This document shows, in pieces, positions 199-9,378 of a stretch of 64,000 bases of DNA. The translations under genes were made by a program, and so were the position numbers. Positions within the stretch are counted from its first letter, which is position 1, and every line of letters starts with the position of its first letter. The notes under the pieces were generated by a model that made no database searches, was not told where the DNA came from, and was given only the letters and a program-made list of their open reading frames with translations. This DNA comes from Psammoneis japonica (lineage: Eukaryota): the NCBI GenBank assembly GCA_008632985.1, contig QPGO01000012.1, positions 620,001 to 684,000 on the forward strand, in the 5' to 3' direction.

Positions 199-2595
199 TC
201 AGGCACTTGAGCGAGTATAAAGCAAGCCAGAGTCGCGAAGATTAGCGTAAAGTTTACGGGGAAGGTCGCCTTCAATCTCTTCTGGCAACTTAATTTTGCC
301 TCCGTGCTTTGGAAGGTCCAGCGATTCTTTGTAGCCTCTTGCCAGCATGACAGACTTTCGATCCTTCAAATTGCCCACCTTTTCAGCCAAACTGTACAGT
401 TTTCCAGTCAAAGATTGCATGTGACATTGGCGCTCAGTCTCTCGCATGACGTCCTGAGCGGCTTTCAACCAGTTGTTGTTGTGTGGCCCGGGTGTACTCT
501 TGACCAGTTTCGAGTCCAACTGGGTGTCTTTCGCGCGAGTCACTTGCTTGACACACTCAAGAATTTCTGAGTCCCAACATGTGAAGTAGGGGTCTCCATC
601 AATATCGCCTTGAGCAATCTGCAGGGGAAGAGGAAGCGAACCATCACGTGGTCCCCCGAAAATTACAAAGCCGAAAGGCAACGAAAGAAGCCACTCCCAG
701 TCTTGCACTTGCATGGCCTTGGGCTTCGTATTGACAATAGAGACCATCCGTCCATCGGATGCTTCGAGGCACGGAAATCGGGAGATGAAGAGCTTGTCGT
801 GTTTGCCTTGCTCGGTTCCCATACCCGTTACAAACATGCGTCCCTTCGGTAAGGCACCGGTTGGGTCTGCAGCCCCGAGCAAGCTGGCATGTTTCAAGCC
901 TTTGATGGTTTTCTTGTTGTCACACCTCTTGCAGTACTTCGTGATAACATCGCTCGGAACACCAAGGTTTTCCCACAATCGAATGATCATTTTCGATGGA
1001 GCCTGACTCTCATTCTTGAAATAGCTCATTGGAGGATCTTTTGCTTCAGGGTCCAGTTGGCGTCCAATCAACTTGTTCTTTTGACTGGGGAATGTGTTCT
1101 TGACAATCATACATGACCACTTTTCGTCTTGTGCAACCTCTTGAGAACGCGGAACTTTCCGCATGGAACGAGGGAGCTCAATGTGATCAATGTTCTGTTT
1201 TGGAAAAAGTATTCCCTTGACACAGCCAAGGTGTGGAGAGAACACACGAACTTGCAGAACAGTGCAGTCATAGCGCTTGGCCATGGACTGGGGCATAAAG
1301 CCACAACCATCGTTACCTGGTTGGTCTTTTGTGACTTTGATGCGCGGCAGATCATCGCCATCTATGATCATTTTCTTGTTGGACTTGCTGACAATCATTT
1401 CCAGTCTTGAGGATGCCTTTTCGGGCGAGAGCTTGCCAAAGTTGGCTATCTTTTCCAATTCCTTTTTCAGTGAAATACTTTTCAAGCCTGGACCACGCGT
1501 GGCAACGTACCATATGCGTATTTCCTTTGCCTTTCGTATATGCCAGGAAACGTGATTTGAGCCATGGGCCTCTTTGTTGACTTTGGTTGCAAGTAGTTCA
1601 TAGGTACGGTCGTTAACCGTAAATTTCGTTGGAAGTTTGGCATGCGGTGCTTTCAGAGAGAGCTTGGCTTCCTGTAGGCGACGTCCGAAGTAGTGACTTG
1701 CAAAAGATACGTCCATTTCCTCTTCTGGAGGATCAAAGATTATCAACCGCACTTGCATGTTTCCAGCCACCAGTCCTGAGTTTCCGTCAGGAATCGCCCA
1801 CGAGGGACGAGTTTCGGCACCTTGATTTGCTCCTTTCGTCGCCTTACGTGCGACCCGGTTGCCTTTTACCACTTTCTTTTGTTGTTCGAACTTTGTCGCC
1901 TCCTCCTTGGCAGAATCATTCAACGACTCATCAGGTACCCATTCGTCGTGTTTTGCTGAGAACCCTCTCCAGCGAACCTTGTACTCTTTTGTGCCATTGG
2001 CGTTCGTGCGAACGGCGACAATCTTTGCTACTTCCGCGTAGTCTCCCTCGACGCGACAAGGCTCGGCTGATGTGGGAGTCGTCTTGCCTCCTGCTTTCGT
2101 CTTCGAGCGCTTTGCGTTTGCAGACGTTGATGTAGTAGAAGTCGACTTCCGTTTCTTGCTCCTGCGGCCTCTGGGCGGAAGTCCCTTCAACTGTCGATCG
2201 TAACAGTCAAAACAGCCTGCGTTCCGGCACCTTGTGCATCCAGGTGCACCTCGCTGTTTCCAAGTTTTACTCTTCGAGTCGTCCTTCGAGTTGACCACGC
2301 CTACTTCATCAGCTTCCACATCGGGGACAGGGGCAGCACCGGCAGGTGGTTGAGCAGCAGCTTCGTCTGTACCAGTAGAGATTTCTACAGCGTCTTCATC
2401 CTTTTTGGCAGGGGCTAGCATCTCCTTTGATGTCCCCCCAACAGAATCGTCAGGCTTTCCAGCAGCAGCGGCAGGCTCATCTTTCGAACCCGTCGAAGGT
2501 TCTCCATCACCAGAGACTTCCTCGGACTTTTCAGCACTTGCAACCTCTTTTGCAGCCGGCTTCACTTCCCCACCAGCGGTATACTCAGCGTCCAT
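199..2595 (-). CDS. RNA-dependent RNA polymerase-like protein (eukaryotic RdRP/RDR family) with N-terminal CxxC-x4-CxxC motif and chromodomain; may have an additional 5' exon at ~2670-2857
   Basis: 798-aa ORF. RdRP motifs DGCGFM, QVR...KG, SMRK, ISRFPCL and catalytic GDIDGDPYFTCWD (DxDGD). Chromodomain-like segment EVAKIVAVR...EYKVRWRGFSAKHDEWVPDESL. GCTRCRNAGCFDC Cys cluster. Confidence 0.85.
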   Translation of the reverse strand: MDAEYTAGGEVKPAAKEVASAEKSEEVSGDGEPSTGSKDEPAAAAGKPDDSVGGTSKEMLAPAKKDEDAVEISTGTDEAAAQPPAGAAPVPDVEADEVGVVNSKDDSKSKTWKQRGAPGCTRCRNAGCFDCYDRQLKGLPPRGRRSKKRKSTSTTSTSANAKRSKTKAGGKTTPTSAEPCRVEGDYAEVAKIVAVRTNANGTKEYKVRWRGFSAKHDEWVPDESLNDSAKEEATKFEQQKKVVKGNRVARKATKGANQGAETRPSWAIPDGNSGLVAGNMQVRLIIFDPPEEEMDVSFASHYFGRRLQEAKLSLKAPHAKLPTKFTVNDRTYELLATKVNKEAHGSNHVSWHIRKAKEIRIWYVATRGPGLKSISLKKELEKIANFGKLSPEKASSRLEMIVSKSNKKMIIDGDDLPRIKVTKDQPGNDGCGFMPQSMAKRYDCTVLQVRVFSPHLGCVKGILFPKQNIDHIELPRSMRKVPRSQEVAQDEKWSCMIVKNTFPSQKNKLIGRQLDPEAKDPPMSYFKNESQAPSKMIIRLWENLGVPSDVITKYCKRCDNKKTIKGLKHASLLGAADPTGALPKGRMFVTGMGTEQGKHDKLFISRFPCLEASDGRMVSIVNTKPKAMQVQDWEWLLSLPFGFVIFGGPRDGSLPLPLQIAQGDIDGDPYFTCWDSEILECVKQVTRAKDTQLDSKLVKSTPGPHNNNWLKAAQDVMRETERQCHMQSLTGKLYSLAEKVGNLKDRKSVMLARGYKESLDLPKHGGKIKLPEEIEGDLPRKLYANLRDSGLLYTRSSA

Positions 2596-3049
2596 ACCTT
2601 ACTACTACTTCCTTGCTTATACTTGTGGTGATCAGAGGAGAGAGAAATGGATTGTTCTTACGTACGACCTGTGTATCTTTCTCTTGATGATTCTTGACAC
2701 TTGTTCCTTGTTCAACGGGGCCAAGCCAACTCGCGAAAGAGCGTGTGGGCTTCACGACAGCCACAAGCTCGCGCGCGATCGCCGGCGCGCAGCCACCCCT
2801 GAGCGAGAGGGTTCTCGTGTCAGTTGCTTCGGGTGTGTAGTGCTTGGTTGATTGCATGCAATGGTTCGAATTGTCTGTGCAGGCAGACGCAGTGCTTGCA
2901 CGATCGTAATATAGACATACGGACTTTTTAGGTATATTTCAGTCTCTTTGGGATTTCCGAGAACCCCCCTGCTGGTGCGTACAACTCTACGCACTGTCAA
3001 GCCATTTCCCGCTCCGAACCCAAATCTCACCACACAAACACCGGGGTTC

Positions 3050-6000
3050 ATTTACGCTGTTCACCTGAAAGGCTGTTGTGACTGCACTCTCCCTCTTCCT
3101 TAGAAAGTGGGGGCACACACCATTGACACAAGTTCTGCATGAGAACAGCGTGCCACTGGTTTGAGAGGAATCAATCCTTTTTTGCAAAATGTCGAGTTGG
3201 TGAGATTCGGCGAGTCGAGTGATGACAGTGGTTCTTGCGAGAGTGTTTGTGCCAAATTTTTCATTTGTTGTTCATCTCCCCCTGCAGGCAACACGCGGAT
3301 CGCTCAATGTCTTGTGAGAACATGCTGTGGATGCATCTGCTTCATCAACTGAGACGACTTCATTGTGGACAAGTGTCTTGTCTCCCATGGCAAGATGCAA
3401 CTCAAGCTTTGGCACAAACCTCGTGCAACTGTTGGGGCATCGAATGCTGGACAATGAGTGCGGGCTCTCAATGATTGTAGATGACAAAGTTTGTTGTGGG
3501 ATTGGCAGGGCTTGCCATGGTGTGATTGGAGTGCCTTGATCTGGACAACAATTCCGTGGTTGGCGGCATCCACGACAAGCTCCATGGATTGACCACATTG
3601 GTTGCGTTTGATGTGCATTGCAATCAGTTCAATGTGGGCCACAATGCTGTTGTAACTCCACTCCAATGTGAGTCATCATTGAAGTGAAATTGTGCATTGT
3701 CGTCACATCCTGCTCTCACAAACACTGCGCATTTGCCATCAGCCCCCTTGTTGACGAACGCGTCCAAGATGCCAGATGCCATCCATTGAAGGACGGTGAG
3801 TCCCACGGTTGTAGAGTCTGGGCTCTTCTTGCTTCATGGTCTTAAACACACTGATTGTCCAACATCCTTGCATTGTGATGACAGGGTGACAAGTTCCTGG
3901 GGACAGTGCGCCAAAGTCGGGACATGACTCTTTTGTGATTGCATTGATGGCGATTTAGTTCTGTCTCCATTTGCACTCGGGATGTGGCAGCAACTTTTTT
4001 GTTGTCTGTGAATGGAGATGGTTTTGTGTGAACTGCAGCATCCTTTCAGGGTCGTCATGGCTGTTCGTTTCCACGTAAAAAGCAACCTTCTTGAGACAAG
4101 CATTCTGCAAAACACCAATGAATTCTACAAGCTCTTCCATGATGGGATTCCACATTTCACCCAGAGGAAGGATGTTTCAAATGCATTGTGCCAGTGCAGA
4201 TGCCAGCCACAGTTGTGGGTCACTGTCAACATGCACCAACCGTTGCTGGAACGCTTGTGTGGCCCAGGCAAAGGAACGACGTGAGTTCCGAGAACATCAC
4301 CCATGGGCCCTAAAATGTCAAGAGTTTTTTTTTTGCTTGCTTGGTTCCATGAATTGTCATGATGGCAAAGTCAGGGTCGCTCGGAAGTGCAATCAGCTTG
4401 TGGTGCACAGCCAACTCAGCCCCATGCTGGGCTCCGAATTTCGCAATGGTTTCGACATCATCATCATCATGCGCCACACCGGCCCAAACCAAGCGAGAAG
4501 CATGAAGATCACCACAAATGCAGTGATTGTCTTGATCCACACATCCCCGCGTCCTCCTTGGCTGATGCTCGTGTCACGACACGTGTCGTAGATTGTGCAG
4601 CTGCGGCGAACCGTGTCATGATTGAGAGCCAAAACAAGGGCCACCACTGCAATGGGTGGCCTTGCTCTGCAATGTGCTCAAAGCATGGGCCATCGATTGC
4701 CTTTTGATTTGCTCTTTTTCAGGCTGGTGCTGACTCTTGTGGCTCTCATTCTTTGGTGGCATGGTTGTCTTGTGAAAGACGAGGGAGCAGTGGCTTCAAG
4801 TGGTGCCACTCTGTGCTTGGCCGTGTTGGCGGCAGCTTGAGAAGACGATGAAATGGTTTGACGGTGCGCAGAGTTGTCACGGTGTGGGGGCCTCTGCGCA
4901 AATCCATTTCCAGGTTGTTTCATGTGCGGGCATTGGGACAATCAATCTTTGCCAAATGCGGAAAATCCATCTAATGTGATGAAGACAACATGTGAGCACG
5001 CCCAACTCCTTTTTCAAGATTTGCCCCTCGGCACAATTCACACGTCCAAACGTTGTGCAGCAGCCCCTGCTCAGGGGTGGGGCACAGCCAGCTGGGTGTT
5101 GGAGGGAGACGGACGTACGAAGCATGACCACATCAGAAAATCCGCACTCTGGCAGGGCCACACAGTGCACTCCACCAGCAGTCGCATCATGCATCCGTGC
5201 TCACACATTTCATCTTTTGCACAGGATCGAAGGCAAGTCGATGGAGGAGCACCACTTCTCTGTGCTTACATCCACAATCACGGCTCTGTGAAATCTGCAT
5301 GCAATTTTGATCCTCACTGCTGTCATGCTCATAAAATCTTTTGAATCAAGGGATTGGTGGTCGGCAGAGAGAGACACAAAATTGTCCAGCCTTTCCTTCA
5401 TGAAACTCGGCTTGTTGGTCGTGCCTGCGGGTGCTGCCACTGCAGTTTGGCACTCCACACTCATGAGAGCGTCCATGCTTGGAATGACAGTGAGGCATGA
5501 AATGATTGCCATGCACATGTGGATCTGGCCAGATGCTGAGGTTTTTGACTGCAGTCTGGCGGGGTGCAAACTTGCGAGCTGCCAAGATGTCACGCTGTCT
5601 CTGGTTGGAGGAAAAGCTTTGCAGTGCTGGCGTCTCTTGAAGCAAGGCATTCCCATGCCTGAGTCATTCACACTCCTGACTTGTGCATGCTCGATGCATG
5701 TTGGAGATGCTGGTGCCATTGACCTCATCAACGGTGTCTTTGCAAGCATGACTTTGCCGACAAGACGTTGCATGAAGACATTTGTGAGAAACTGGCTGCA
5801 GTTCATGAATGCATCATGTCAATGCCATTAAAAGAAGAGGTCATGGAGAATGTGGATTCCTTTCTGGGCACTCTCAAAGGCGCTCTTGTTGCAGCTTGCT
5901 CAAGCAGATCTGCGGAGGATCTTGCCGGCCAGTCTTTTGCTGGGCAGTGTGATGCACACTTGTGCGGGGTGACTGTCAAAGAAGTGGTTGAGTCCATCAA

Positions 6001-8260
6001 GAATTGCTGGGCTTCCATGTTCAAAAACCACATCATTGCTCGAGTTTGCTTCACACAAAACTCATGGGGCAAAAAGAATGAAGTCAAGATTGAAGCAGCA
6101 CATGGTCAAGGCAAAGGGATTGTGAGTGGAGAGATCACTCCCGACCAATTGTTTGTGCTCTTGACAAGCACAGCACCAATCTCTGCTGCAAGCAACTTTC
6201 AACTCAAACCCACAAGATTGTGCACTCATCCAATGTGGACAGGGCAGAAAAGGTTGAACTTTTGGAGTCAACGGCAGTTCCTGTTCTCAACAGCAGAGAG
6301 CTCAAGGTGATCACCCACTTGGCCATGGGCATGCAGAAGAGTTCTGCGGCAGTCAACAGGGTGTGGAATTCACGTTTGATGAGTGCACGGCACATTGCAT
6401 CTGTTGCAAGCCCATCCTGTCACAACCATCAATGACCATGGTTTCTTGTCTTTCTTGCCTCCCAGGGAAGGATTCTGGAGGTTCAATCCAATGCACTTTG
6501 CCCGTCCTCTTGTGCCACACTTTTGCAACTTGCATGACATGAGCTGATGCAGCGAGTGCTGCTCTCAATGCACAGGGTGCCTTGTAAAGAATGTGAAAAT
6601 GCATTGTGCTCACAGCTTTGGTTTCACCTGGCCTGAGTTCTTCTTGCCATCTGATGCTTTGGAATGTGCTGCTGAGGCTTGTTGGTCCAAGAAGCTGTGC
6701 AAAGATGACTGCTGTTGTGAATTCATGGATTTCTTCCAGCCGTCCTCCGTCCTGAGTGCGAAGCACTGCAAGAAGAATTGAGGAGTGCAAATCTGATTTC
6801 ATTGAGCCATCAATCCTTGGTTTCATGTGTTGCTCATTGTTTTAACCTCACAACAGATTTTTCTGGAAAAAACATCACTCACATGCTTTTCTGGCTGTTT
6901 GGTGTTGTTGGCAACTGTGCCAATTGAATGGGAGAGTTGCTGGGCAAGGATTCAATGGACAGCCTGGCGCCACTTGAGAATGCATTGCCTGAGTCACGTG
7001 GAACATTGAGTCGTGAAGATCTGTCACTTGCGGAAATGCACTGGCTGGTCAGCAAGTCAGAGAAAGCCGCGAGTCTGTTGCAATCAGATGAAAGCAGTGC
7101 CACATGGGCTCTTGATTGTTTGCTCCACCTTCCCAATTGACTTGGACACATGTTGAGAGAGGTCACATTCAAGCATGGATGGAGATTGGCAGGTGGTCAT
7201 GACTTGATTGTCTCTGGGCCAAAGAGCTCCCCAGCACAACATTGGCATCAAAGTAAAAAGACATTGCTCATGGCCACATTCTTTGACAGCAACTTGAACC
7301 TGTGGAGCCACTTGCTGTCCAGTGGCAACAGCTGCCAGCATCGTGGGCTCAACACAATCTGCTGACTGGAGCAGGGCTCAACCCAAATGTGCTCTCTCAA
7401 GTCAGGTGTGGGCATCTGGGAAGAGATGTTGTGAAATTCCATTTGTGTCTCATTTGCCCAGATGACATGATGAAAACCAGAAAGGATTTCAATGCAACAA
7501 GATTTGTCAGGAAAAACAAAATGCAGCAGAGACCTGGAGACTGCGGGAGGGAGACAAGACGACAAGAACAGTGACGCACTTGCAACAACAGCAACAGCTG
7601 GACATGGAGCACCATGCACTGAACTTTTGGCTTGCTGCTCAAAAGTGCAACAAGCAATGGAGCAAGTTTGTGCATCAGGTTGTGAGCAGTGCCTGAGTTT
7701 TGGCTTCCCCCCGGTGTGTTCCCCGCCACTCAGCTGAGACAATTGCTTTGACAGCACTTGCAAAACAACAGCTGGCAAGCCAGCAGAGAGCCCAGCTGTG
7801 GAGAACAGCTCACTCAACAAGCTCCATTGCTTTTCAGTTGTTTGCAAAAGCACGTGCTTGGTTGGCAAGCTCATGACACAAGCTTGCCCCTGCTCGGCAG
7901 AGCCAGCAGCTTTTGGTGCAAGATGCTGTGGGCCGCACAGCCGCGAAAGGCAACCTGCCTGCTGGGTTCTTCTTGGTGCCTCCCGTGTTCACTGCAGCGT
8001 TGTTGTCTTTTTGGCTGCTGCTGCTGCCCAGCCTGGCACTGCTCAAAAAGATTGTGCAATGGCTGCCCCTTTTGGTCTGTGCAACGATGTGCTCTGATCT
8101 GACAGAGAGCTTGCAATCACAGAAAAGCAACACACCACCCACCACCACCCACCACCGTCCATTGGCAGCAATCGGTTTGTGTCATCAATCCCAAATCTAG
8201 CACAAACGCACACTGACCCCTTCACAACTGAAACTGCTTTGACACCTTCCATTCATCGGC
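3050..8260. repeat. Degenerate TpA- and CpG-depleted repeat/heterochromatin-like block
   Basis: Visibly very few TA and few CG dinucleotides, excess TG/CA and many overlapping Cys/His-rich ORFs. Composition returns to normal on both flanks. Boundaries are approximate. Confidence 0.7.
5400..7600 (+). pseudogene. Pseudogene of a PEP-utilising enzyme (PEP synthase/pyruvate,water dikinase-like PPDK_N domain plus middle domain)
   Basis: Frameshifted fragments LVGGKALQCWRLLKQGIPMPESF, SSRSAEDLAGQSFAGQCDAHL...IKNCWASMF and IEAAHGQGKGIVSGEITPD match the PPDK_N motifs VGGK, AEDL..SFAGQYDTYL, CWAS and GLGEGVVSG..PD. Tyr is replaced by Cys/His. Confidence 0.7.
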
Positions 8261-8799: not shown

Positions 8800-9378
8800 A
8801 TGAAGTTTCTCTTTTCCTTTCTTACTTTCCTTTTGGATGCTGCCGTAGGAGTGGGAGATAGCACCTGTGATCCCAACCCATGCATGAATGGAGGGACGTG
8901 CTCGCATACACTTGGCGGGTTTTCTTGCGTTTGCTCCGAAGGGTTCACAGGCAGGAGGTGCAGAGTAGTGATGTCAGGTATGCGAAGCCGCCGACTGGAT
9001 ACGTGCGATCCCGATCCATGCCAAAACGAAGGGGTATGCGAGCATACCCTTGGTGGGTACAGATGCAATTGTACCGAGGGATGGGAGGGAACGAATTGCA
9101 CGGACGAGTCAACCCAACAGCCGCATGACACGTGCATGCCCGATCCATGCCACAACGAAGGGGTATGCGAGCATACCCTTGGTGGGTATAGATGCAATTG
9201 TACCGAGGGATGGGAGGGAACGAATTGCACGGACGAGTCAACCGATCAGCCGCATGACACTTGCATACCCGATCCATGCCACAACGAAGGGGTATGCGAG
9301 CATACCCTTGGTGGGTATCATTGCAATTGTACCGAAGGATGGGAGGGAACAAATTGCACGGAGAGCAGGAGCAACTAA
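8800..9378 (+). CDS. Secreted protein with four EGF-like domains
   Basis: Signal-like N-terminus MKFLFSFLTFLL followed by four CxPxPCxNxGxCxHTLGGY/FxCxCxEGxxGxxC repeats. Confidence 0.85.
   Translation: MKFLFSFLTFLLDAAVGVGDSTCDPNPCMNGGTCSHTLGGFSCVCSEGFTGRRCRVVMSGMRSRRLDTCDPDPCQNEGVCEHTLGGYRCNCTEGWEGTNCTDESTQQPHDTCMPDPCHNEGVCEHTLGGYRCNCTEGWEGTNCTDESTDQPHDTCIPDPCHNEGVCEHTLGGYHCNCTEGWEGTNCTESRSN
8998..9362 (+). repeat. Three near-identical 129-bp (43-codon) tandem repeats encoding EGF domains 2-4
   Basis: ccgatccatg recurs at 9011, 9140 and 9269 with near-identical intervening sequence. Confidence 0.9.

What the first reader, a model, noticed from the sequence alone, without database searches (positions are those of the whole stretch)
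199..2595. Chromodomain + Cys-cluster + RdRP fusion gene bordering a hypermutated block
Seen in sequence: one ORF joins a CxxC-x4-CxxC motif, a basic patch, a chromodomain with aromatic residues (Y..W.GF..EW) and a compact RdRP catalytic domain (GDIDGD) that ends soon after the active site. Established knowledge: in fission yeast the chromodomain reader (Chp1/RITS) and the RdRP (Rdp1/RDRC) are separate proteins that couple H3K9me to dsRNA synthesis. Inference: this could be a single-chain chromatin-tethered RNA polymerase that marks repeats for silencing, and so a candidate targeting component for the repeat mutagenesis. Its adjacency to a TE block may be coincidence, or it may be TE-borne.
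Basis: partly seen in the sequence, partly recalled or inferred. Interest (0 to 1): 0.7.

Follow-up and report, generated by a model that had tools for sequence, protein, structure and literature searches.

The report
Chromodomain-tipped headless RNA polymerase gene
This is one intact gene, probably from a diatom, that joins a chromatin-reader-type domain to a stripped-down RNA-silencing polymerase lacking the usual clamp-like head, a design that could tie small-RNA production to silent chromatin but has not been tested, and its position beside hypermutated DNA is ordinary for this genome.

Summary
The fusion is real: one 798-aa ORF with a Cys4 motif, basic patches, a chromodomain (Pfam E 2.6e-10; folds like CDYL2/Chp1) and a QDE-1/RDR2-fold polymerase with all catalytic residues. 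A relative's contig is colinear, with frame-keeping indels only. Three corrections. (1) 'Compact' is a family trait: the core covers slab, both barrels and most of the flap of QDE-1, but lacks the C-terminal head/clamp; the Phaeodactylum RdRP is in this family (696 clusters). (2) The methyl-lysine cage is incomplete: Ala187 holds the first cage position, so H3K9me reading is doubtful. (3) Adjacency to TpA-depleted DNA means nothing: 58% of the region is depleted, 8 of 8 other long ORFs outside blocks lie within 1.4 kb, and paralogous copies are themselves hypermutated. The gene is not TE-borne. The family swaps chromo, KOW, Tudor, PHD and HA modules; chromo sits on 5 of 7 members of this gene's clade. 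Best reading: a monomeric, head-less RdRP tethered to chromatin or nascent RNA to feed heterochromatic small RNAs. The scan noted chromo-RdRP fusions before, in two other genomes and in a broken paralog here. No description turned up in the papers searched.

The parts
199..2595 (-). Whole ORF, 798 aa plus stop; no intron needed
   Evidence: a relative's contig is colinear over 166-2672 with frame-keeping indels only
2284..2595 (-). Acidic low-complexity N-terminus (aa 1-104). Most of it (2271-2583) is absent from the relative's gene and matches another contig of that run, so it is probably a lineage-specific insertion
   Evidence: 24 D/E vs 9 K/R; joint 2270/2584 and record 2; no second copy found in own genome
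2203..2238 (-). CxxC-x4-CxxC cluster (C120, C123, C128, C131): possible small zinc knuckle, no family assigned
   Evidence: 5 of 20,000 shuffles; no hit; pLDDT 45-60; region present in the relative at about 88% DNA identity
2050..2190 (-). Basic Ser/Thr-rich patch (aa 136-182), NLS-like or nucleic-acid-binding (inferred)
   Evidence: 14 K/R, 1 D/E; predicted disordered
1864..2040 (-). Chromodomain (aa 186-244); cage positions A187 / W209 / F212
   Evidence: Pfam; PDB phmmer to CDYL2, MPP8, Chp1, CBX; AF2 pLDDT 83-96, Foldseek TM(target) 0.75-0.85 to CDYL2/Chp1 chromodomains at E about 1e-3
1801..1878 (-). Basic extension of the chromodomain helix and linker (aa 240-265); a similar K/R-rich linker follows the chromodomain in P0002, P0041, P0182
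   Evidence: 8 K/R, 1 D/E
202..1800 (-). Head-less two-barrel RdRP core (aa 266-798): slab, DPBB1, short connector, DPBB2, bridge-helix/flap; ends 35 aa after K763
   Evidence: AF2 pLDDT 89.6, pTM 0.89; VIA Z 23.3 (rmsd 3.4, 414 aligned) to maize RDR2 379-931 and Z 19.6 (rmsd 3.6, 429 aligned) to QDE-1 418-1136
592..606 (-). Catalytic DIDGD (D664, D666, D668 = QDE-1 D1007, D1009, D1011)
2793..5080 (.). Dispersed repeat starting 198 bp upstream of the ATG; context, not part of the gene
   Evidence: 23 other matches in own genome, none extending into 2100-2790
3176..8125 (.). TpA- and CpG-depleted block upstream of the gene; holds a decayed PPDK_N (PEP synthase/PPDK-type) gene piece

Best explanation
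The gene encodes a working member of an algal, mainly diatom, family of cellular RdRPs that have lost the C-terminal head (clamp and dimer domain) and carry interchangeable binding modules instead. In this copy the chromodomain and flanking basic patches hold the monomeric polymerase at silent chromatin or on nascent repeat RNA. There it copies single-stranded nucleic acid into dsRNA for Dicer/Argonaute, feeding heterochromatic small RNAs. SHOWN: the fusion, both folds, the conserved active site, the missing head, the family and module swapping, purifying selection in a relative. INFERRED: expression, catalysis, monomer state, nuclear location, the chromodomain's ligand and the role in small-RNA production. 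The ligand may not be H3K9me, because the cage is incomplete.
For: Q448, K460, K480, D664, D666 and D668 match QDE-1's invariant Q736, K743, K767 and three Asp; each is kept in 104-108 of 108 aligned family members. The model matches RDR2 and QDE-1 best. The family ends a median 29 aa from the conserved K of KHG (104 of 108 within 50 aa), against 210 aa in Arabidopsis RDR2 (counted from the alignment). QDE-1 cut to 377-1192 is monomeric and keeps RdRP and DdRP activity (PMC9508822, passages). On the polymerase core alone the gene falls in a clade (99/97) where 5 of 7 members carry a chromodomain. Pfam on 142 of the best 150 relatives finds KOW/SH3-type modules in 30, Tudor in 5, chromo in 4, HA in 2, PHD in 1, RNase H in 1. 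The first 40 of 184 listed differences to a relative give pN/pS 0.32 with no stop. The Phaeodactylum protein is 33% identical over 526 aa, E 4e-72; that species has one described RdRP and 25-30-nt small RNAs with 180-nt periodicity over methylated TEs.
Against: Ala at the first cage position; only 4 of 12 RdRP-linked chromodomains aligned or listed have three aromatics at the three cage positions. Chromodomains are clear in only 11 of 166 family proteins examined, and starred branches force at least 7 gains or losses among 36 selected rows, so the domain is dispensable for the family. The core stops about 50 residues short of the active QDE-1 truncation and also lacks the internal head segment, so activity is extrapolated. 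The genome also has canonical long RdRPs (C1, C341) that could do the silencing work. No experimental data on any family member were found.
Confidence: 0.5

Rival explanations
1. The polymerase is functional but the chromodomain in this copy is vestigial or binds a non-histone partner. The enzyme works post-transcriptionally, without chromatin tethering.
For: The first cage residue is Ala, two base changes from Trp. Chromo is gained and lost repeatedly and moves from N- to C-terminus (P0005). Most family members, including the Phaeodactylum one, have no Pfam chromodomain.
Against: The domain still scores well above Pfam's cut-off and folds confidently. The chromo-basic linker-polymerase order is kept in relatives only about 42% identical. 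An extra aromatic just before the first cage position (Y186) is conserved in the subfamily and might rebuild a pocket.
Confidence: 0.27
2. The head-less enzyme is mainly DNA-templated: a one-chain stand-in for plant Pol IV + RDR2 + reader. It is recruited to marked chromatin, transcribes unwound DNA and copies the product into dsRNA.
For: QDE-1 and its head-truncated form have both DdRP and RdRP activity. [quoted passage not shown] Many of the family's modules are chromatin- or DNA-associated types (HA, PHD, MBD-like, Tudor; functions recalled). Small RNAs are phased at 180 nt in Phaeodactylum.
Against: The fold is closer to eukaryotic RDR2/QDE-1 (Z 18-23) than to phage DdRPs (Z 11-17). No template data exist, and this ORF has no helicase.
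Confidence: 0.13
3. One reading: the enzyme is the targeting component of TpA-to-TpG/CpA repeat hypermutation.
For: The genome has both an expanded family and strong TpA depletion. The Bigelowiella preprint speculates that RNA intermediates could guide the process (10.64898/2026.01.13.699255, passages).
Against: Adjacency is uninformative. Paralog copies are victims: 23 of 28 TA steps became TG/CA in the C16 duplicate. The passages read show no RdRP involvement: 0 occurrences of 'RNA-dependent'. No co-occurrence test was possible.
Confidence: 0.07
4. The gene is cargo of a transposable element or a recent chimeric pseudogene.
For: It sits on a 3.4-kb island between two depleted blocks. The N-terminal acidic piece looks like a recent insertion. 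Several paralogs are broken.
Against: 2100-2790 is single-copy and the repeat boundary is outside the gene. The ORF has TA o/e 0.42, like other intact genes. pN/pS is 0.32. The architecture recurs in distant relatives.
Confidence: 0.03

Closest known systems
Phaeodactylum tricornutum RdRP (ACN89265.1 / XP_002179579.1 / UniRef B7FXM0; probably the Pt2_45417 of De Riso et al. 2009, PMC2724275; that equation is inferred)
   Same: Same compact family: 33% identity over 526 aa, same end point, DxDGD.
   Different: No chromodomain or Cys cluster by Pfam (on cluster representative P0010); different branch of the tree. No functional data found.
Neurospora QDE-1 (PDB 2J7N, 7Y7P) and plant RDR2 (7W82, 7EU0)
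   Same: Slab plus double-psi beta-barrel core, invariant Q/K/K and DxDGD.
   Different: Lacks the third neck helix and C-terminal head (QDE-1 1162-1372). [quoted passage not shown] It carries a chromodomain in cis.
Fission yeast RITS (Chp1) plus RDRC (Rdp1)
   Same: A chromodomain and an RdRP act together; the chromodomain model matches Chp1 (3g7l, TM(target) 0.85). Pathway details are recalled.
   Different: One chain instead of two complexes; incomplete cage; no Argonaute link shown; head-less polymerase.
Thermus phage P23-45 gp96 clamp-less virion RNAP (PMC10770324)
   Same: Lacks the C-terminal clamp element and has a short connector; a structural parallel.
   Different: [quoted passage not shown]
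Diatom JmjC-chromo protein (JMJ-CHROMO of PMC3145265; own-genome copy on contig C24)
   Same: Apart from the C42 paralog, the only other chromodomain hit in this genome (E 3.2e-5); same subfamily signature as RdRP-linked chromodomains.
   Different: Fused to a demethylase domain; keeps Trp at the first cage position and has Cys at the third.

Membership tests
Cellular RdRP (PF05183; QDE-1/RDR) | Pfam RdRP score above the curated cut-off | tested here: met
   95.3 bits vs 23.8
Cellular RdRP (PF05183; QDE-1/RDR) | Two double-psi beta-barrels plus slab, QDE-1/RDR2 fold | tested here: met
   Predicted model: Foldseek E 8e-20; VIA Z 23.3, rmsd 3.4, 414 aligned
Cellular RdRP (PF05183; QDE-1/RDR) | DxDGD and invariant Q736, K743, K767 | tested here: met
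   Q448, K460, K480, D664/666/668
Cellular RdRP (PF05183; QDE-1/RDR) | Four-domain architecture with neck and head (clamp, dimer interface) | tested here: not met
   Alignment ends at QDE-1 1136-1143 / RDR2 931-939 with under 25 residues of the model left
Cellular RdRP (PF05183; QDE-1/RDR) | RNA-templated RNA synthesis | not testable with these tools
   Needs an in vitro assay
HP1/Chp1/MPP8-type methyl-lysine chromodomain | Three-strand plus helix chromo fold and PF00385 hit | tested here: met
HP1/Chp1/MPP8-type methyl-lysine chromodomain | Three aromatic cage residues (MPP8 F59, W80, Y83) | tested here: not met
   A187, W209, F212: first position is Ala; neighbouring Y186 might substitute, untested
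HP1/Chp1/MPP8-type methyl-lysine chromodomain | Binding to H3K9me2/3 or H3K27me3 | not testable with these tools
   Needs peptide or nucleosome binding assay
Zinc finger (Cys4) | Match to a known finger family or a confident fold | tested here: inconclusive
   Motif is beyond chance, but no family hit and low pLDDT without an alignment
TE-borne cargo gene | Gene lies within the ends of a repeated element or travels with its copies | tested here: not met
   The repeat starts at about 2793; 0 of 23 other matches reach into the gene
RITS/RDRC-like heterochromatin loop | Argonaute-siRNA and H3K9 methyltransferase coupling | not tested
   Dicer, Argonaute and methyltransferase genes of this genome were not searched

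The most novel reading that the evidence does not exclude
Diatoms and some other algae use an undescribed family of clamp-less, single-chain two-barrel polymerases that plug in chromatin readers in place of the head. These enzymes act as a one-protein equivalent of Pol IV-RDR2-reader: they dock on marked nucleosomes, make RNA from DNA and then dsRNA, and produce the nucleosome-phased heterochromatic small RNAs. In this lineage those RNAs would also mark repeats for TpA hypermutation.
Probability: 0.12. Interest if true: 0.9.

Novelty: new variant of a known kind. Interest (0 to 1): 0.57.

Why it matters
How diatoms make the 25-30-nt small RNAs that cover their methylated transposons is open (PMC4247016, passages). 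The RdRP of the model diatom Phaeodactylum belongs to this head-less family, so the question can be tested by ordinary knockout and biochemistry. A eukaryotic two-barrel polymerase family that has shed its clamp and swaps in reader modules would extend the known architecture of RNAi polymerases; a clamp-less form was called unprecedented when found in a phage RNAP in 2024. The chromodomain members give a natural experiment on direct chromatin-to-dsRNA coupling. The link to TpA hypermutation would raise the stakes but has no support here.

Tried and rejected
Expression: no RNA holder listed. The single run laid (X1, RNA status a guess, contigs only) is a relative about 92% identical and does not show transcription; its difference table was cut at position 772, so the relative's residue at position 187 could not be read. 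Cys-cluster relatives: nothing in the word-indexed search of residues 105-300 (0 of 551 candidates), the 51-aa search among longer proteins (0 of 6), own genome or the ESM Atlas (no usable hit; chromo-only leads at 0.78). Metagenome loci: 48 pattern matches, none confirmed. Viral structure library: only distant phage polymerases, best TM(query) 0.48, so no sign of a viral origin. Intron reading of 2271-2583: a GT..AG pair could excise 315 nt in frame, but the relative's joint has 7 other letters and the piece matches another contig, so an insertion fits better; not settled. No donor copy of that piece was found. Scan look-up by sequence returned nothing, and by 'headless' words nothing. Literature: 10 searches (listings and abstract starts seen) gave no paper describing a chromodomain-RdRP fusion or a head-less diatom RdRP. 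The New Phytologist diatom Dicer paper (Grypioti et al.; recalled as surveying diatom RDRs) is not held and may cover this. Supplements of PMC2724275 were not read. The shuffle test on chromo labels (179 of 500) is not meaningful because the 36 rows were picked to be chromo-rich. No complex prediction was run: a methylated peptide cannot be modelled and a pass would reflect solved chromodomain structures. Co-occurrence with TpA depletion across species could not be tested because no relatives' genomes are held.
Full report
OBSERVATION. Window 199-2595 on the minus strand is one uninterrupted frame of 798 aa. In order it holds an acidic N-terminus (1-104), CxxC-x4-CxxC (120-131; 5 of 20,000 shuffles), a basic patch (136-182), a chromodomain (Pfam 188-238, E 2.6e-10, above cut-off), a second basic linker (240-265) and an RdRP region (PF05183, E 4.9e-27) with DIDGD at 664-668. 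Named relatives are Phaeodactylum, Thalassiosira exigua, Proboscia alata and the green alga Cymbomonas, so a diatom is inferred.

ONE GENE, UNDER SELECTION. A 2,294-nt contig from a relative (run X1, RNA status only guessed) aligns from 166 to 2672, just past both ends of the ORF. Its indels inside the ORF sum to multiples of three. The first 40 of 184 listed differences change 36 codons: 17 synonymous, 19 not, no stop, pN/pS 0.32 (C-terminal 190 codons only). The relative lacks 2271-2583, and that piece matches another contig of the run, so the acidic N-terminus is probably a local insertion. Independent proteins with chromodomain, basic linker and polymerase in the same order exist at about 42% identity (P0002, P0041; also P0182, P0112). 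The fusion is not an assembly or reading artefact.

THE POLYMERASE IS HEAD-LESS, AND THAT IS A FAMILY TRAIT. An AlphaFold2 model of aa 266-798 from 108 sequences has pLDDT 89.6 and pTM 0.89. It matches maize RDR2 residues 379-931 (Z 23.3, rmsd 3.4, 414 aligned) and QDE-1 418-1136 (Z 19.6, rmsd 3.6, 429 aligned); phage single-subunit polymerases follow at Z 11-17. By the domain limits of Salgado et al. (PMC1750930, passages) this covers slab, DPBB1, DPBB2 and most of the flap. It omits the third neck helix and the head (1162-1372), which forms the dimer and was likened to the Pol II clamp. The connector between the barrels is about 89 aa from K480, against about 149 in QDE-1 (counted). The residues named invariant in QDE-1 are kept: Q448, K460, K480, D664, D666, D668, each in 104-108 of 108 rows. 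In the best 150 relatives, 145 have DxDGD; 127 have a K[HQRY]G motif downstream, and 124 of these end within 45 aa of it. Arabidopsis RDR2 continues 210 aa past the equivalent lysine. These hits were selected by likeness to a head-less query, so this describes the family, not all diatom RdRPs. The same genome has canonical long RdRPs on C1 (424 aa after DLDGD) and C341. Loss of the head need not kill activity: QDE-1 377-1192 is a monomer with RdRP and DdRP activity (PMC9508822, passages), and phage gp96 works without a clamp (PMC10770324, passages). Our core is shorter still, so activity is inferred.

THE FAMILY. phmmer finds 696 clusters at 50% identity with E up to 0.001, 269 up to 1e-30. 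One cluster holds the Phaeodactylum protein ACN89265.1 (33% over 526 aa). De Riso et al. list one RdRP in that species (PMC2724275, passages). Pfam on 142 of the best 150 gives extra modules at E up to 0.001: KOW/SH3-type in 30, PTM/DIR17 Tudor in 5, chromo in 4 (2 above cut-off), HA in 2, PHD in 1, RNase H in 1. Seven of the other eight were covered, which adds PHD (Cymbomonas) and, among further hits, a weak MBD; P0041 was not Pfam-scanned. A chromodomain profile built from ten family and own-genome domains finds clear domains in 11 of 166 family proteins, 8 of them seeds, and weak ones in 3 more. In a tree of the polymerase core alone, the gene groups with six others at 99/97 support, and 5 of these 7 carry a chromodomain, one of them at the C-terminus (FastTree on 162 rows agrees). 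Across 36 selected rows, starred branches force at least 7 gains or losses. The chromodomain is therefore typical of this subclade but is one of several swappable modules.

THE CAGE IS INCOMPLETE. The chromodomain folds confidently (pLDDT 83-96) and matches CDYL2, Chp1 and MPP8 (E about 1e-3 because of its size). MPP8 binds methyl-lysine with F59, W80 and Y83, F59 lying in V-F-E-V (PMC3192050, passages). The equivalent here is Y186-A187-E188-V189, W209 and F212. The first cage residue is Ala, where relatives have W or Y (H in the decayed C42 copy). Among 12 RdRP-linked chromodomains aligned or listed, 4 have three aromatics; several have Cys or Ser at the third position, as does the genome's JmjC-chromo protein, the nearest non-RdRP chromodomain found in this genome. 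An extra aromatic one residue before the first position is conserved in this subfamily (Y186 here) and could build an alternative pocket; I could not test this. That losing a cage aromatic usually weakens methyl-lysine binding, and that Chp1's chromodomain also binds nucleic acid through a basic helix, are recalled, not checked. The Cys cluster is beyond chance but has no relatives or confident fold.

THE NEIGHBOURHOOD DOES NOT LINK IT TO HYPERMUTATION. TpA and CpG depletion with CpA/TpG excess is real. But 42.8 of 74 kb around the gene (58%) is depleted. Of the 8 other ORFs of 250 aa or more lying wholly outside blocks (one is an opposite-strand shadow), all 8 are within 1.4 kb of a block and 5 within 500 bp; this gene is at 427 bp. 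The upstream repeat begins at about 2793, and none of its 23 other matches enters the gene. The own-genome search gives 12 matches on 7 contigs including this one. C123 is intact. C42 is frameshifted and partly depleted. The C140 copy has a stop and lies in a block. The second C16 copy has 23 of 28 TA steps changed to TG or CA, with 1 kept. Family copies are targets of the process. The Bigelowiella preprint proposes an adenine deaminase and only speculates about RNA guidance (passages). A targeting role is not excluded, but nothing here supports it.

MECHANISM AND VERDICT. Most likely (0.5) this is a functional, monomeric, head-less RdRP whose chromodomain and basic patches tether it to silent chromatin or nascent repeat RNA, supplying dsRNA for heterochromatic small RNAs. 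The 180-nt periodicity of 25-30-nt small RNAs over methylated regions in Phaeodactylum (PMC4247016, passages) fits a chromatin-templated source but does not prove it. Rivals: a vestigial or non-histone chromodomain (0.27), a mainly DNA-templated Pol IV-like role (0.13), a hypermutation targeter (0.07), TE cargo (0.03). It works like a fused Chp1-Rdp1 or reader-RDR2; it is a member of the cellular RdRP family by sequence, fold and active site, but fails the head/neck criterion, and its chromodomain fails the three-aromatic criterion.

NOVELTY. Ten literature searches found no description of the fusion or of the head-less architecture; one likely relevant paper was not held and supplements were not read. 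The scan's own notes report chromo-RdRP fusions in two other genomes and a broken one in this genome; these are unchecked notes, not support. Class: new variant of a known kind. Interest 0.57.

Noticed in passing
window 5723-6307 (+): Decayed PPDK_N (PEP synthase/pyruvate phosphate dikinase-type) gene piece inside the TpA-depleted block, Pfam E 3.4e-21: the block holds a dead host-type gene, not only TE sequence.
   Followed up: partly
L031 (C240) vs L032 (C238): Two 97%-identical copies of a family paralog with chromo-like repeats inserted after the active site. The C240 copy has about 2.8 kb of other sequence at its 5' end holding a 737-aa ORF that looks like a tyrosine recombinase (by eye; no Pfam hit). 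The C238 copy shifts frame at the active site.
   Followed up: partly
L036 (C341:25606-29988): Canonical-type RdRP with DCDGD, followed by a Cys-rich stretch and helicase-like frames; probably the scan's note e1-7691100.
   Followed up: no
L026:2102-4687 (-) (C24): Chromo-JmjC gene whose chromodomain is of the same subfamily as the RdRP-linked ones; a possible donor lineage for the module.
   Followed up: partly
Family hits P0107, P0046, P0050, P0067, P0171: Other fusions of the head-less polymerase: C-terminal RNase H, multiple HA repeats, four tandem chromodomains, and a 2,467-aa PHD protein of Thalassiosira exigua.
   Followed up: partly
window 8998-9362: Tandem repeat of about 130-bp period at 93% identity in a non-depleted stretch.
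   Followed up: no
L027:4822-5967 (-): GPR1/FUN34/YaaH transporter gene on the next non-depleted island, 3' of the polymerase gene.
   Followed up: no
L029+L030 (C16): An intact paralog has DMDGD and follows a KOW-repeat frame; its local duplicate also shows CG to CA/TG in 44 of 80 steps, so CpG decay and TpA loss act on the same copy.
   Followed up: partly
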